Shown here: positions 1 through 6,128 of the stretch, one piece after another
How positions within the stretch are numbered: position 1 is the stretch's first letter
Layout of the letters: every line of letters starts with the position of its first letter
DNA from: Candidatus Woesebacteria bacterium
GTDB taxonomy: Bacteria; Patescibacteriota; Microgenomatia; UBA1400; UBA1396
Assembly (NCBI GenBank): GCA_021208605.1
Contig: JAJOJK010000002.1
Location: forward strand, 37,606 to 101,605
Direction: 5' to 3'
DNA length: 64,000 nucleotides
Notes under the pieces: model-generated
What the model saw: the letters and a program-made list of their open reading frames with translations, nothing else
The model's database searches: none
What the model was told of the DNA's origin: nothing
Program-made: the position numbers and the translations under genes

Positions 1-2277
<2,277 letters not shown>

Positions 2278-2283
2278 AGATCG

Positions 2284-3810
2284 TTACTCCTCTTTCGCTA
2301 TATGCCATTCAGGATGGAGTTCGTTATAGGCTTCAACCACTTTTTTGAGCGCTGTTTCGGTTTCATCGAGTAACTTCTTTTCCTTCACGATAGAAGTGTA
2401 GATGTCATCAGCCGTGTCGTGCACGTGCTGAATGAAACCACTTTCCCATTCTCGAATATGATCAACTTGAATGCCATCGAGGTAACCACGAGTGGCAGCC
2501 CAGATAACAACAATCTGCTCTTGTACGGCTAATGGAGTGTCCCATCCTTGGTTAAGGATTTTGGCGACGCGCTCACCACGTGCAAGTTGCTTTTTGGTTG
2601 CGGGATCAAGGTCAGAACTGAACTGAGAGAAGGCTTCCAGGTCACGATACTGCGCTAGCTCAAGTTTCATTGGACCAGCGACCTGTTTCATGGCCTTAAT
2701 TTGGGCCGATGAACCAACACGCGATACTGAGAGTCCTACGTTAATGGCTGGACGAACGCCAGCGTTGAAGAGGTCTGACTCGAGGTAAATCTGTCCATCA
2801 GTAATAGAAATGACATTTGTCGGAATGTATGCTGAGACGTCATTGGCTTGTGTTTCGATGATAGGCAACGCGGTGATAGAACCACCACCATGCTCTGGAT
2901 TCAAGCGACAAGCGCGTTCGAGTAAGCGGCTATGCAGGTAGAAAACATCACCTGGATACGCTTCACGACCAGATGGACGACGCAAGAGCAAAGAAACTTC
3001 GCGATACGCTTGAGCATGTTTGGAAAGATCGTCATAAATAACTAAAACGTCCTTCCCTTGCTTGAGGAAGTGCTCAGCGATAGCGGTACCAGCCATAGGA
3101 GCGAGGTACTGCTTGGCTGCTGTATCAGAGGCGCTTGCTACGACCATGACTGTGTACTTCATAGCGCCCCGCTCTTCTAAAAGAGAATGCGTCTGAGATA
3201 AGAAGCTGCGTTTTTGCCCAATGGCCACATAGACACAGATAACATCTTGATCGTGTTGATTCAGGATAGTACCGAGAGCAACTGCAGACTTTCCAGTTCC
3301 GCGGTCACCAATAATAAGCTCACGCTGACCTCTTCCAATTGGAATCATGGCATCGATGGCTTTGATACCAGTCTGAAGTGGTTCGGAAACGGATTGACGG
3401 GCCATAACACCTGGCGCAATCTTCTCCATTTCTTCATAGCCCTCAATAGAAAATTCACCTTTTCCATCGAGTGGAGTGCCTAGTGGATCAACTACACGAC
3501 CAATAAGTTCATTGGATACCGGCACAGACAAAAGACGACCAGTGCCATACACTGGTTGGCCAACTGTTATATGAGCAGCATCGCCAAGAGCAACAACACC
3601 GACAGTTTCTTCGTTCAAGTTCAGCGCAAGTCCGAGCTCTCCTCGACCGAGATCCACCAGCTCATTGGCCATGATGGAGTCTAAACCTGACACAGTGACA
3701 ACACCATCACCAAATGACTCGACTTCACCAACTAAGCGGGGCTCAGTGGTTGAAGGAAAGTTTTTCAGTTTCTTTTCAATATCGGTCAAAAAGCTACTCT
3801 TTTTTGCCAT
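2284..3810 (-). CDS. atpA: ATP synthase F1 alpha subunit
   Basis: 508 aa with Walker [16 protein letters not shown] and the conserved alpha core. It lies between the gamma and delta genes. Confidence 0.92.
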
Positions 3811-3825
3811 GAATATCCTTACTCG

Positions 3826-4044
3826 TTATGCGAGGTTGCGCAGTGTTTCCAGTTGGTTCAGAACCGTTGCATCATACTGTTTCGAGCCGATGGTGAGGCG
3901 AATGCCGCCAATAACAGCTGGATTCACTACTTCTTTTAGCTCGATTTCTTGTGTACCTGCTTTTGCCTGAGCTACTTGCATCACTTCTTTACGTTGTGTG
4001 GCAGTAAGTTCTACTGCTGTGGTTACTGTAACGTGCTGTGCCAT
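3826..4044 (-). CDS. atpH: ATP synthase delta (OSCP) subunit, C-terminal domain only (72 aa)
   Basis: The motif ...AVIGGIRLTIGSKQYDATVLNQLETLRNL matches the conserved delta C-terminus. The N-terminal alpha-binding domain (about 100 aa) is absent. The ORF lies in the same frame as atpF, 6 codons after its stop. Confidence 0.7.
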   Translation of the reverse strand: MAQHVTVTTAVELTATQRKEVMQVAQAKAGTQEIELKEVVNPAVIGGIRLTIGSKQYDATVLNQLETLRNLA

Positions 4045-4062
4045 ACCTGTTTTCCAATTTCG

Positions 4063-4548
4063 TTATTTCTGGGAAGCAATACTCTTCAGACCAGACTCAA
4101 TGAGTTTTGCGTGTTTCTTGGAGTCAACAGACTCGCCCAAGATATGCTCAGCAACTGTGAATACAGCGGCTTCAAACTCTTTTTGCTGCTCTTTGAGAGC
4201 CTGTGCTTTTTCTTTTTTCAGAGCTTCAAGCATCTTCTCGCGCTCATCGGCGACTTCAGCTTTTACTTCTTTCAAAAGTTCAGACTTTTTTTCTTTTGCT
4301 TCTGCGCGGGCGGCGGCGATAATGTCTTTCGCTTCCTGTTGAGCTTCTCGCTTTACTTGCTCAGCGTGTTCAGAAATTCGGCCTTTTTCTCGAAGTGCAG
4401 CTTCAGCTGCTTTTTGACCTTCGGTCACTTTTCGAGATCGTTCATCCAAAATTTTCTTAACTGGCTTGAAGAGCAAGAACGTCAACAGTCCAGCCACGAT
4501 GCCGAAGTTCAGCATCTGCAGTAAGATGGCGGTGACTTGTATTTCCAT
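4063..4548 (-). CDS. atpF: ATP synthase Fo b subunit
   Basis: 161 aa with an N-terminal TM helix followed by a long charged A/E/K-rich helix, in operon position. Confidence 0.85.
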   Translation of the reverse strand: MEIQVTAILLQMLNFGIVAGLLTFLLFKPVKKILDERSRKVTEGQKAAEAALREKGRISEHAEQVKREAQQEAKDIIAAARAEAKEKKSELLKEVKAEVADEREKMLEALKKEKAQALKEQQKEFEAAVFTVAEHILGESVDSKKHAKLIESGLKSIASQK

Positions 4549-4577
4549 GCGTTCTCTCCTTTATTCTCTCGTATCTC

Positions 4578-4793
4578 TTAAGCGACAAACTTGATAATTA
4601 AAGCGACTACCAAAGCGTAAATAGCAATAGCTTCGGCAAAAGCGGCGACAAGCACCATAGCAGCTTGAATCTTGGAAGCAGCTTCTGGGTTGCGACCGAT
4701 AGACTCCAAACCTGCTTTACCAATAATGCCGATAGAAATTGCTGGGGCAATAGCACCGAGGGCGATGGTCAAGGCGACTGGTAAGTTATCCAT
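4578..4793 (-). CDS. atpE: ATP synthase Fo c subunit
   Basis: 71-aa two-TM hairpin with the polar loop GRNPE and the conserved carboxylate region AEAIAIY. Confidence 0.88.
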   Translation of the reverse strand: MDNLPVALTIALGAIAPAISIGIIGKAGLESIGRNPEAASKIQAAMVLVAAFAEAIAIYALVVALIIKFVA

Positions 4794-4845
4794 TTTTTCT
4801 CCTTTTTCGTTTTCTTTTCTTGTTTTGTATTATCTACTGCTGTAT

Positions 4846-5787
4846 TTAGTGATGCTCACTGGTTGCCATATTAAAGAATACGAGTGAGAGCATTGCAAAG
4901 ACATAGGCCTGGAGCCCGCCAACAAATATCTCAAATCCAATAAATGGTACTGGAATGAGAATCGGGACTAAGAATTTCATTACAGAGATGAGTACCTCGC
5001 CGGCAAAAATATTACCAAACAAACGGAAGGCAAATGAGATTACCTTGGAGAATTCAGCCAATATTTCAAGGATACCGATGAAAAATGAGATTGGATCGCT
5101 AAAGTTGAGGTATTTTTTAAAGTAGCCGAGTCCAACAAACTGAACGCCGATCACCTGTGTCATGAAGACAGAGATAATTGCCAGCGCAAGTGTCATGTTG
5201 ATGTCAGCATTCGCACCACGGAAAAGAGCGGTTGCTCCGTGCTTCTCTTCACCAGCGTGATCATCATCTGTTTCGTGATTTTCAGTTTCCAATACTGCGT
5301 GCTCTGGGTCGCCAATTTCCAGTTCGGTACCATGCTCTTCAACAGTTATTTCCTCAATAGCTTCGGAAGCATGGGCGACATCTGGATTGAGCCACTTAGG
5401 TAAGTCTGTGAATTGAACTGTTGGTTCACCGGTAAACTGAATAGTGTGAACACCAGGAACGAGTTCAAACCAGTTATTGAGTGCGATAAAAATAAGGAAA
5501 CTGCCAATGAAGGGAACAAAGACCGCAGTTTTCTTGGCAGATTGCGTAACATTATCAACTAGGCCATAAATGGAGCCCACGATAAGCTCTATAAAAGACT
5601 GGAAGCGAGATGGTCGATCAGTATCTTCGATTTTTGAGTTTGCGTAAAACAAAAAGACCGTTAGGAGGGCGGTCACAAAAAAGCTTGTAAACAAGGTGTT
5701 AGCGACTTCGACGCCGCCGATATTAAAAAGTTGTTCTGCACTAATTGCAATATGAAGTCCGCTACCGGCTGCCATAGTTGTATCCAA
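4846..5787 (-). CDS. atpB: ATP synthase Fo a subunit, carrying an acidic/His-rich loop insertion of about 70 aa
   Basis: The a-subunit signature FRLFGNIFAGEVL (essential Arg) and multi-TM architecture are present. At 313 aa it is larger than the usual 230-270 aa because of an insert between LVPG and ANADINMTLALAI. Confidence 0.85.
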   Translation of the reverse strand: MDTTMAAGSGLHIAISAEQLFNIGGVEVANTLFTSFFVTALLTVFLFYANSKIEDTDRPSRFQSFIELIVGSIYGLVDNVTQSAKKTAVFVPFIGSFLIFIALNNWFELVPGVHTIQFTGEPTVQFTDLPKWLNPDVAHASEAIEEITVEEHGTELEIGDPEHAVLETENHETDDDHAGEEKHGATALFRGANADINMTLALAIISVFMTQVIGVQFVGLGYFKKYLNFSDPISFFIGILEILAEFSKVISFAFRLFGNIFAGEVLISVMKFLVPILIPVPFIGFEIFVGGLQAYVFAMLSLVFFNMATSEHH

Positions 5788-6013: not shown

Positions 6014-6085
6014 GGCCCCATCGTCTAGTGGTCTAGGACGCCAGGTTTTCATCCTGTAACCGGGGTTCGAGTCCCCGTGGGGTCA
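6014..6085 (+). tRNA. tRNA-Glu (anticodon UUC)
   Basis: Cloverleaf with acceptor GGCCCCA/TGGGGTC, anticodon loop TTTTCAT (U33, anticodon TTC), T-arm CGGGG-TTCGAGT-CCCCG and discriminator A. No CCA is encoded. Confidence 0.8.
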
Positions 6086-6092
6086 CAAAAAA

Positions 6093-6128
6093 AGAGAGAG
6101 TCATTGGCTCTCTCTTTTTTATTTTTTA
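6093..6128 (+). terminator. Rho-independent terminator after tRNA-Glu
   Basis: GAGAGAG-tcattgg-CTCTCTC hairpin followed by TTTTTTATTTTTT. Confidence 0.75.

What the first reader, a model, noticed from the sequence alone, without database searches (positions are those of the whole stretch)
3826..4548. ATP synthase delta subunit reduced to its C-terminal domain, in frame with b after a stop codon
atpH encodes only 72 aa, matching the conserved C-terminal b-binding part of delta (...VIGGIRLTIGSKQYDATVLNQLETL). The ~100-aa N-terminal domain that docks onto the alpha N-terminus is missing. The ORF lies in the same reading frame as atpF, 6 codons after its TAA, so stop read-through would produce a b-delta fusion of about 240 aa. 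The cause could be a remnant of a b/delta fusion, a real minimal stator, or a deletion.
Basis: seen in the sequence. Interest (0 to 1): 0.55.

Follow-up and report, generated by a model that had tools for sequence, protein, structure and literature searches.

The report
Free-standing minimal ATP synthase delta subunit
This Woesebacteria (candidate phyla radiation) genome, like many of its relatives, encodes an ATP synthase whose delta subunit is only the 72-residue C-terminal domain, lacking the cap domain that experiments indicate limits the enzyme to one stator stalk; it is a conserved gene under selection, not a sequencing error or a read-through fusion.

Summary
atpH (3826-4044, minus strand) encodes 72 aa that match only the C-terminal domain (CTD) of delta/OSCP. 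It lies 18 nt after the TAA of atpF and in the same frame.

It is not a local accident.
- Among the 150 best cluster representatives, 65 are free-standing CTD-only deltas of 60-81 aa.
- Six CTD-only lineages inspected all have the order a-c-b-delta-alpha, and gamma-beta-epsilon follows wherever the contig continues.
- Against an 85%-identical relative, delta shows 17 synonymous and 2 non-synonymous changes (dN/dS 0.03).

Read-through is not supported. Across nine lineages the b-to-delta frame offset is 0, 1 or 2, and in the sequences read delta starts at its own ATG.

No delta N-domain was found in the 64-kb window or in 16 related loci. The rest of the genome could not be scanned.

Sister lineages carry tandem CTD-CTD deltas. 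Other bacteria carry an N-domain followed by two or three CTDs.

Closest precedents:
- N-ATPase b, whose C-terminal region aligns with delta's C-terminus.
- The natural Acidaminococcus fusion of N-domain-less delta to alpha.
- Engineered Bacillus PS3 with N-domain-less delta fused to alpha, which forms up to three stalks and has H+/ATP 5.8.
- Chloroflexus, which has two deltas and two stalks.

A free-standing CTD-only delta appears undescribed in the literature I could search. It is a new variant of a known kind. Whether the enzyme has several stalks is plausible but untested.

The parts
3826..4044 (-). atpH: free-standing delta subunit of 72 aa made only of the OSCP/delta C-terminal alpha/beta domain
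   Evidence: Pfam OSCP positions 103-170 of 172, E 5.8e-16. The AF2 model has a beta-alpha-beta-beta-beta-alpha topology, and its top Foldseek PDB hits are all delta/OSCP C-domains with TMq 0.65-0.76. dN/dS is 0.03 against L009.
4045..4062 (-). 18-nt b-delta spacer (CGAAATTGGAAAACAGGT) holding a purine-rich Shine-Dalgarno-like stretch; in frame with both genes
   Evidence: The spacer is identical in L009. In eight other lineages its length runs from -1 to 10 nt and the frame varies.
4063..4548 (-). atpF: b subunit, 161 aa, ordinary length, TAA stop at 4063-4065
   Evidence: Pfam ATP-synt_B 3.2e-17. The C-terminal motif LI..(G/E)L..I is conserved in single-CTD and tandem-CTD lineages.
4578..4793 (-). 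atpE: c subunit, 71 aa
   Evidence: Pfam ATP-synt_C 1.1e-15.
4846..5787 (-). atpB: a subunit, 313 aa
   Evidence: Pfam ATP-synt_A 1.5e-38, matched in two stretches.
5212..5436 (-). About 75-aa acidic, His-rich insertion in the a subunit (residues 118-192; 20 D/E, 6 H, 3 K/R). It sits between the NNW..VPG motif and RGANADINMTLAL.
   Evidence: Alignment with relatives. The insertion is present in all eight N-domain-less loci whose a gene is complete. It is absent from the a subunits of L017 (230 aa) and of Saccharibacteria L018 (240 aa).
3811..3825 (-). 15-nt delta-alpha spacer with an AAGGA Shine-Dalgarno sequence; also in frame (RVRIF)
   Evidence: Delta-to-alpha is in frame in 5 of 9 lineages, from coordinates.
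2284..3810 (-). atpA: alpha subunit, 508 aa. The N-terminal amphipathic helix (about residues 5-20, coordinates about 3750-3798), which is the element that binds delta, is retained.
   Evidence: Pfam. The sequence aligns from residue 11 to residue 12 of Bacillus PS3 alpha. N-termini of relatives are shown.
1390..2277 (-). atpG: gamma subunit, 295 aa
   Evidence: Pfam ATP-synt 6.4e-87.
2..1393 (-). atpD: beta subunit. 464 codons are readable, the C-terminus is cut by the window edge, and the start overlaps the gamma stop by 4 nt.

Best explanation
atpH here is a genuine, separately translated delta subunit of an F-type ATP synthase that consists only of the C-terminal alpha/beta domain. This is a heritable architecture of a Microgenomates/Woesebacteria lineage, not a lesion of this one genome.

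Shown:
- The domain content, and the standard operon a-c-b-delta-alpha-gamma-beta.
- Conservation of the 70-80-aa form across many lineages.
- Strong purifying selection.
- An ATG at the start of delta in every sequence read, usually preceded by a purine-rich stretch.
- No conserved reading frame with b.
- Retention of the alpha N-terminal helix and of the b C-terminal motif.

Inferred: the 8-kDa protein does what the delta C-domain does in solved enzymes. It clamps the C-terminal ends of the b2 dimer to the N-terminal helix of an alpha subunit at the rim of the F1 crown.

The N-domain normally sits on the pseudo-threefold axis and holds the other two alpha N-termini. With it gone, nothing in the F1 head breaks the symmetry. 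One copy could therefore bind per alpha, and more than one b2/a stalk could be recruited, as in the engineered Bacillus PS3 enzyme. The stoichiometry (1, 2 or 3) is not determined here.
For: Domain content:
- Pfam matches the C-domain only, and the ORF is bounded by the b stop.
- The fold model matches delta/OSCP C-domains.
- The profile aligns its positions 8-72 to PS3 delta residues 113-175. This is essentially the 105-178 fragment used in the engineered enzyme.

Conservation:
- The nearest homologues are 71-73 aa at 54-58% identity.
- 65 of the 150 best 50%-identity cluster representatives are CTD-only, 60-81 aa long, and 63 of them start with Met.
- A wider profile search recovered many more proteins of 69-83 aa among its 120 listed hits, some on contigs of 0.66-1.09 Mb.

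Context: every inspected locus has a-c-b(159-161 aa)-delta-alpha, and gamma-beta-epsilon follows wherever the contig continues.

Selection: against L009 (85.5% nt identity), delta has Sd 17, Nd 2 and dN/dS 0.03. The values are 0.011 for b, 0.012 for alpha and 0.04 for a.

No read-through: the frame offsets are 0 (four lineages), 1 (three) and 2 (two).

No N-domain: an HMM built from 65 canonical N-domains finds nothing better than E 2.5 in six-frame ORFs of the window and 16 loci. It also finds nothing in 163 CTD-only or tandem proteins.

Partners retained: the alpha N-terminus and the b C-terminus.

Precedent that the C-domain alone binds b2 canonically and supports coupling: PMC12229609. N-ATPase lacks atpH, and its long b C-terminus aligns with delta's C-terminus: PMC2881411.
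Against: - Only 64 kb of a genome whose contig is at least 409 kb could be scanned, so a second delta or a split-off N-domain elsewhere is not excluded.
- The N-domain HMM was built mostly from non-CPR sequences and could miss a very divergent N-domain.
- The AF2 model is of moderate confidence (pLDDT 69.8, built on 4 sequences).
- No experiment shows that a free C-domain binds alpha stably. The engineers of the PS3 enzyme fused it to alpha because they doubted this.
- No expression or proteomic data are available.
Confidence: 0.8

Rival explanations
1. The functional product is a b-deltaCTD fusion of about 240 aa made by read-through of the atpF TAA. It would resemble the long b subunit of N-ATPases.
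For: - b and delta share a frame and are 6 codons apart.
- b residues 1-152 and delta72 residues 3-69 match collinear parts (1-152 and 177-242) of TIGR03321, the alternate F1F0 b model.
- The spacer is identical in L009.
Against: - The frame is not conserved: offsets are 0 in four lineages, 1 in three and 2 in two. In L014 the genes overlap by 1 nt.
- In every sequence read, delta starts at its own ATG, usually preceded by a purine-rich stretch.
- TAA is the stop codon.
- The scores against TIGR03321 (63 and 23 bits) are far below its cut-off of 224.7, and delta72 scores higher against canonical delta models.
- Conservation of the spacer is expected for a ribosome-binding site. At the local divergence, 18 unchanged bases are not unusual.
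Confidence: 0.04
2. The N-domain function is supplied in trans, by a second full-length delta or by a separately encoded N-domain or analogue elsewhere in the genome. In that case the stator is not really minimal.
For: Most of the genome could not be examined. Split genes do occur in reduced genomes.
Against: - There is no N-domain signal in the window or in 16 related loci, up to 20 kb each.
- The delta slot of the only visible atp operon is occupied by the short form in all lineages.
- Sister lineages fill the slot with CTD-CTD tandems instead, which argues that the N-domain is truly dispensable there.
Confidence: 0.08
3. This is an assembly or sequencing artefact, a recent deletion, or a decaying pseudogene in an organism that no longer needs a coupled ATP synthase.
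For: CPR genomes are reduced, and most are assembled from metagenomes.
Against: - The same architecture appears in at least nine independent assemblies from different samples.
- dN/dS is 0.03, in the range of the other subunits.
- All other subunit genes are intact.
Confidence: 0.02

Closest known systems
Canonical bacterial delta / mitochondrial OSCP (PF00213; e.g. Bacillus PS3 6N2Y chain I, E. coli 6OQR chain W)
   Same: The C-terminal alpha/beta domain is homologous, including the conserved V/I-GG-I and YD motifs. The gene sits between atpF and atpA. The presumed role is to bind the b C-termini and one alpha N-terminus.
   Different: The whole N-terminal helical bundle of about 100 aa is absent. 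That bundle holds two alpha N-termini and sits on the F1 axis. The protein fails every NCBIfam delta equivalog cut-off.
Engineered Bacillus PS3 deltaDeltaN-alpha F1Fo (PDB 9JC1; PMC12229609) and the natural deltaDeltaN-alpha fusion of Acidaminococcus fermentans noted in that paper
   Same: Delta is reduced to the same C-terminal fragment: PS3 residues 105-178 correspond to the whole 72-aa protein here. In that enzyme b2 binds the fragment in the canonical way, up to three stalks and a subunits assemble, and H+/ATP is 5.8.
   Different: There the fragment is covalently fused to alpha. Here it is a separate polypeptide, with a stop codon, a 15-nt spacer and a Shine-Dalgarno sequence before atpA. 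The shared delta-alpha frame in this window is not conserved in relatives.
N-ATPase AtpF (TIGR03321 / PRK14474; Dibrova et al. 2010, PMC2881411)
   Same: The stator has no delta N-domain. The b part and the delta-C part are collinear with b + delta72 here.
   Different: There it is one fused polypeptide in an atpDCQRBEFAG operon. Here there are two genes in the standard a-c-b-delta-alpha-gamma-beta order, AtpQ and AtpR are not seen, and the scores are far below the family cut-offs.
Chloroflexus aurantiacus F1Fo (PDB 9ITJ/9ITK; PMC12002316)
   Same: This natural F-type enzyme has an altered delta N-domain, and the alteration goes with more than one stalk (delta2 b4 a2). Its C-domains are structural matches.
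   Different: Chloroflexus delta keeps an 85-aa four-helix N-domain that dimerises on top of F1. Here there is no N-domain at all.
Mycobacterial b-delta fusion (PRK13428; PDB 7JG5 chain d)
   Same: The C-domain fold matches, and it is another example of b/delta rearrangement.
   Different: That protein of 445 aa contains a b-like part plus a complete delta that includes the N-domain.

Membership tests
F-type ATP synthase delta/OSCP (PF00213) | C-terminal alpha/beta domain | tested here: met
   Pfam gives 59.5 bits against a cut-off of 22.3, on profile positions 103-170 of 172. Foldseek hits are delta/OSCP C-domains at probability 1.00.
F-type ATP synthase delta/OSCP (PF00213) | N-terminal helical-bundle domain that binds alpha N-termini | tested here: not met
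   Nothing matches profile positions 1-102. The ORF is bounded by the atpF stop. The N-domain HMM finds nothing in the window.
F-type ATP synthase delta/OSCP (PF00213) | Gene between atpF and atpA in a standard F-type operon | tested here: met
   The same holds in relatives.
NCBIfam delta equivalogs (TIGR01145, NF004403 and others) | Whole-protein score at or above the curated cut-off | tested here: not met
   The scores are 44.3 against 57.5, and 47 against 148.
N-ATPase AtpF (TIGR03321) | b and the delta C-region in a single polypeptide | tested here: not met
   There is a TAA stop and a separate ATG. The frame is not conserved in relatives.
N-ATPase AtpF (TIGR03321) | atpDCQRBEFAG gene order with AtpQ and AtpR | tested here: not met
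   The order here is a-c-b-delta-alpha-gamma-beta. A tRNA-Glu gene lies upstream of atpB, not atpQ or atpR.
N-ATPase AtpF (TIGR03321) | Score at or above the curated cut-off of 224.7 | tested here: not met
   b scores 63.4 bits and delta72 scores 23.2 bits.
deltaDeltaN-alpha fusion type (Acidaminococcus; engineered PS3) | Delta N-domain absent | tested here: met
deltaDeltaN-alpha fusion type (Acidaminococcus; engineered PS3) | Delta C-domain covalently fused to the alpha N-terminus | tested here: not met
   A stop codon, a 15-nt spacer and an AAGGA Shine-Dalgarno sequence precede atpA.
Multi-stalk F1Fo (Chloroflexus; engineered PS3) | More than one b2 stalk and more than one a subunit per complex | not testable with these tools
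   This needs stoichiometry measurements or cryo-EM. Only single-chain structure prediction was available.

The most novel reading that the evidence does not exclude
In these Woesebacteria the free 72-aa delta C-domain binds each of the three equivalent alpha N-termini and recruits two or three b2 stalks, each with its own a subunit. That would be a natural multi-stalk F-type ATP synthase with a doubled or tripled H+/ATP ratio. Such an enzyme could make ATP at very low proton-motive force, or could maintain a modest pmf cheaply when run in reverse. Either would suit energy-starved episymbiotic CPR cells.

On this reading, the tandem CTD-CTD deltas and the N-domain + 3xCTD deltas seen elsewhere would be other genetic routes to the same end.
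Probability: 0.3. Interest if true: 0.85.

Novelty: new variant of a known kind. Interest (0 to 1): 0.62.

Why it matters
The delta N-domain is regarded as the main anchor of the stator on F1. Since 2025 it has also been regarded as the element that restricts F-type enzymes to a single peripheral stalk and a single proton-conducting a subunit.

Natural enzymes that lack it were previously noted only as fusions: to b in N-ATPases, and to alpha in Acidaminococcus. A whole candidate-phyla-radiation lineage that carries a free-standing C-domain, with sister lineages that duplicate it, shows that the stator head is more plastic than textbooks allow.

It also supplies natural test cases for whether multi-stalk, high-H+/ATP F-ATP synthases exist in nature. 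That question bears directly on how CPR bacteria, which lack electron transport chains, manage their energy budget.

A practical consequence is that such short deltas fail the curated equivalog thresholds. Pathway reconstructions may therefore score atpH as absent in these genomes.

Tried and rejected
- The genome-contig scan with the short-delta profile gave only one locus. L009 is a contig labelled Pseudomonadales that is 85.5% identical to this operon. It was useful for dN/dS but not for taxonomic breadth.
- The listing of cluster members returned no names for ten NCBI-sourced relatives. Taxonomy therefore rests on the NCBI name of the identical protein, Candidatus Woesebacteria bacterium.
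- Literature searches for Patescibacteria or CPR with delta subunit, peripheral stalk or atpH found nothing relevant. No solved N-ATPase structure turned up either.
- The N-domain HMM scans were negative.
- The Rfam scan found only three tRNAs and no RNA element at the b-delta junction.
- The promoter and terminator scan showed nothing above shuffled expectation inside the operon.
- Profile scoring of single-CTD proteins against the N-copy and C-copy of the tandem forms gave a weak signal. The C-copy scored best for 70 of 121 proteins, but for this window's own clade the scores were nearly equal to canonical and short-N CTDs. The evolutionary route (direct N-domain loss, or loss of one tandem copy) is therefore unresolved.
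- The AF2 model of a tandem delta gave two confident domains but no defined mutual orientation (pTM 0.42), so it says nothing about stalk number.
- Complex prediction (delta72 + alpha N-terminus + b C-terminus) could not be run.

Full report
**What is in the window**

The minus strand of positions 2-5787 carries a standard F-type ATP synthase operon:

| Gene | Subunit | Coordinates | Length |
|---|---|---|---|
| atpB | a | 4846-5787 | 313 aa |
| atpE | c | 4578-4793 | 71 aa |
| atpF | b | 4063-4548 | 161 aa |
| atpH | delta | 3826-4044 | 72 aa |
| atpA | alpha | 2284-3810 | 508 aa |
| atpG | gamma | 1390-2277 | 295 aa |
| atpD | beta | 2-1393 | cut by the window edge |

atpF ends in TAA. Eighteen bases follow, and then atpH begins in the same frame, so a read-through product would be 240 aa.

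The 72-aa protein matches Pfam OSCP only over profile positions 103-170 of 172 (E 5.8e-16). It passes Pfam's threshold but fails every NCBIfam delta equivalog threshold because two thirds of the model is missing. The stop-to-stop ORF is 78 codons, so no mis-called start can hide an N-domain.

**Is it real?**

The identical protein is annotated by NCBI in a Candidatus Woesebacteria bacterium (Patescibacteria, Microgenomates group) on a 409-kb contig. The nearest homologues, at 54-58% identity, are 71-73 aa.

A profile search of 1.84 billion cluster representatives gave 2138 hits. The 150 best break down as follows:

| Architecture | Count |
|---|---|
| Free-standing C-domain-only (60-81 aa; 63 begin with Met) | 65 |
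| Tandem CTD-CTD (141-154 aa) | 23 |
| Short N-terminal segment + CTD | 25 |
| Canonical | 32 |
| N-domain followed by two or three CTDs | 5 |

A second search recovered many more proteins of 69-83 aa, some on contigs of 0.66-1.09 Mb.

In every locus inspected for six CTD-only lineages the order is a-c-b(159-161 aa)-short delta-alpha, and gamma-beta-epsilon follows wherever the contig continues.

L009 is a relative with 85.5% nucleotide identity over 6.1 kb. Comparing it with the window gives, for delta, 17 synonymous and 2 non-synonymous differences (dN/dS 0.03). The other subunits give 0.011 for b, 0.012 for alpha, 0.04 for a and 0.038 for gamma. This is a conserved, selected gene. It is not an assembly error, a fresh deletion or a pseudogene.

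**Read-through**

Across nine lineages the b-to-delta frame offset varies:
- Offset 0: the window, L001, L007 and L015.
- Offset 1: L004, L010 and L012.
- Offset 2: L014 and L016.

The spacers range from a 1-nt overlap to 18 nt. In all nine sequences read, delta starts at its own ATG, preceded in most by a purine-rich stretch. The shared frame in this window is what chance gives one time in three.

The spacer is identical in L009. It holds the ribosome-binding site, and 18 unchanged bases are unremarkable at the local divergence.

In this window delta is also in frame with alpha: 15 nt, reading RVRIF, with an AAGGA Shine-Dalgarno sequence. That holds in only 5 of 9 lineages.

I conclude that b, delta72 and alpha are made as separate chains. 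Rare read-through in this one organism cannot be excluded, but it is not a conserved mechanism.

**Is the N-domain elsewhere?**

It finds nothing better than E 2.5 in six-frame ORFs of the 64-kb window and of 16 related loci. It also finds nothing in 163 CTD-only or tandem proteins.

The remainder of the genome could not be reached with the tools, so this point stays open. Sister lineages fill the delta slot with CTD-CTD tandems rather than restoring an N-domain, which argues that the N-domain is truly dispensed with in this group.

**What the protein is structurally**

The AF2 model (pLDDT 69.8, built on four sequences) has a beta-alpha-beta-beta-beta-alpha topology. Its Foldseek hits in the PDB are all C-domains of delta/OSCP, with TMq 0.65-0.76 and probability 1.00:
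- M. smegmatis b-delta
- Bacillus PS3
- chloroplast
- bovine and human
- Chloroflexus
- the engineered PS3 enzyme

By sequence, profile positions 8-72 align to PS3 delta residues 113-175. The natural protein therefore corresponds almost exactly to the fragment 105-178 that was used in the engineered enzyme.

The binding partners are retained. Alpha keeps an N-terminal amphipathic helix of normal length, aligning from residue 11 to PS3 residue 12. That helix is conserved within the clade as FL(T/S)D(I/L)Q.KL. The b subunit keeps a conserved C-terminal LI..(G/E)L..I motif.

**How it most likely works**

*Established knowledge.* In Bacillus PS3, one alpha N-terminus contacts the C-terminal region of delta and the other two contact the N-domain. 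The N-domain sits on the pseudo-threefold axis.

When the N-domain (residues 2-104) was deleted and the C-domain was fused to alpha, the results were as follows (PMC12229609):
- b2 bound in the canonical way.
- Up to three peripheral stalks assembled, each with an a subunit.
- H+/ATP rose from 3.0 to 5.8.
- ATP was made at about half the usual pmf.

Chloroflexus, whose N-domain is shortened and dimerises, has two deltas, four b and two a subunits (PMC12002316). N-ATPases lack atpH, and the C-terminal region of their long b aligns with delta's C-terminus (PMC2881411).

*Inference.* The 72-aa protein clamps the b2 C-termini to an alpha N-helix at the rim of F1. No subunit breaks the head's symmetry, so more than one copy, and hence more than one stalk, is possible.

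*Not shown.* It is not known that the free domain binds alpha stably. The PS3 engineers fused it to alpha because they doubted this. The copy number per complex is also unknown.

The tandem forms give no decisive hint. AF2 predicts two confident CTDs (pLDDT 85-91) joined by a low-confidence segment of about 11 residues, with no fixed orientation (pTM 0.42).

**Comparison with known families**

The protein is a homologue of delta/OSCP, but it lacks one of that family's two defining domains.

It is not an N-ATPase component. The gene order is standard, no AtpQ or AtpR is present, and the TIGR03321 scores are 63 and 23 bits against a cut-off of 224.7. Delta72 scores higher on canonical delta models.

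It shares loss of the N-domain with the Acidaminococcus-type and engineered enzymes, but not the covalent link to alpha.

I found no paper that describes a free-standing C-domain-only delta, or one that discusses the peripheral stalk of Patescibacteria. The searchable library is incomplete. I rate the finding as a new variant of a known kind.

**Other observations**

- The a subunit of all N-domain-less loci carries a variable acidic, His-rich insertion of 60-115 aa. In the window it spans residues 118-192. The a subunits of a canonical-type operon (L017) and of a Saccharibacteria genome with a 127-aa delta (L018) lack it.
- From my own knowledge of E. coli a-subunit topology, this loop faces the outside of the cell, near the proton entry side. 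That placement was not tested here.
- P0006 is a delta with an N-domain plus three CTDs (360 aa). It sits in the delta slot of an otherwise ordinary operon.

**Verdict**

The 'minimal stator' reading is supported. Read-through, fusion remnant, deletion and artefact are rejected or unlikely. The multi-stalk consequence is an attractive, testable hypothesis at about 0.3 probability.

Noticed in passing
L014:6001-6432, L015:1152-1589, L016:3866-4312: Sister lineages carry delta subunits of 143-148 aa made of two tandem C-terminal domains and no N-domain. They sit in the same slot, between b and alpha. 23 of the 150 best cluster representatives are of this type. AF2 gives two confident domains joined by a flexible linker (pTM 0.42).
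   Followed up: partly
L017:4175-5257 (P0006); also P0021, P0033, P0051, P0089: Some delta subunits have a normal N-domain followed by three (360-364 aa) or two (253-340 aa) C-terminal domains. P0006 sits in the delta slot of an operon reading atpQ-like, an unassigned 63-aa ORF, a, c, b, delta, alpha, gamma, beta. This could be another route to several b2-binding sites on one delta.
   Followed up: partly
window 5212-5436 (-), a-subunit residues 118-192: The a subunit has an insertion of about 75 aa that is acidic and His-rich (20 D/E, 6 H, 3 K/R). It lies between the NNW..VPG motif and RGANADINMTLAL. An insertion of variable sequence and 60-115 aa is present in all eight N-domain-less loci whose a gene is complete. 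It is absent from the a subunits of L017 (230 aa) and L018 (240 aa). It co-occurs with N-domain-less delta, and its function is unknown.
   Followed up: partly
L018:5001-5384 (CP064992.1, Candidatus Saccharibacteria, 1.23 Mb): 57 proteins form a class of deltas 120-137 aa long (most are 125-135 aa). They have a helical N-terminal segment of only about 60 aa, which weakly resembles the second half of the canonical N-domain. In L018 a 23S_rRNA_IVP-family gene lies between gamma and beta, and no gene is called over the 1.7 kb where alpha should be.
   Followed up: partly
window 3811-3825 and 3826-4548: b, delta and alpha all lie in one reading frame, separated by TAA + 6 codons and by TAA + 5 codons. 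Delta-to-alpha is in frame in 5 of 9 lineages. This is probably chance, but a delta-alpha read-through product would mimic the Acidaminococcus and engineered deltaDeltaN-alpha fusions.
   Followed up: partly
L009 (CAYUUK010000017.1), also P0181: A contig deposited as 'uncultured Pseudomonadales bacterium' shares 85.5% nucleotide identity over 6.1 kb with this Woesebacteria atp operon, and its delta differs at one of 72 residues. It is probably a mis-binned CPR contig in that MAG.
   Followed up: no
window 1390-1393: The atpD (beta) start codon overlaps the atpG (gamma) stop by 4 nt. This arrangement is typical of translational coupling.
   Followed up: no
window 6014-6120: A tRNA-Glu(UUC) gene lies on the plus strand, divergent from the atp operon. 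A 15-bp hairpin with a T-run (6088-6120), which looks like a terminator, follows it directly.
   Followed up: no
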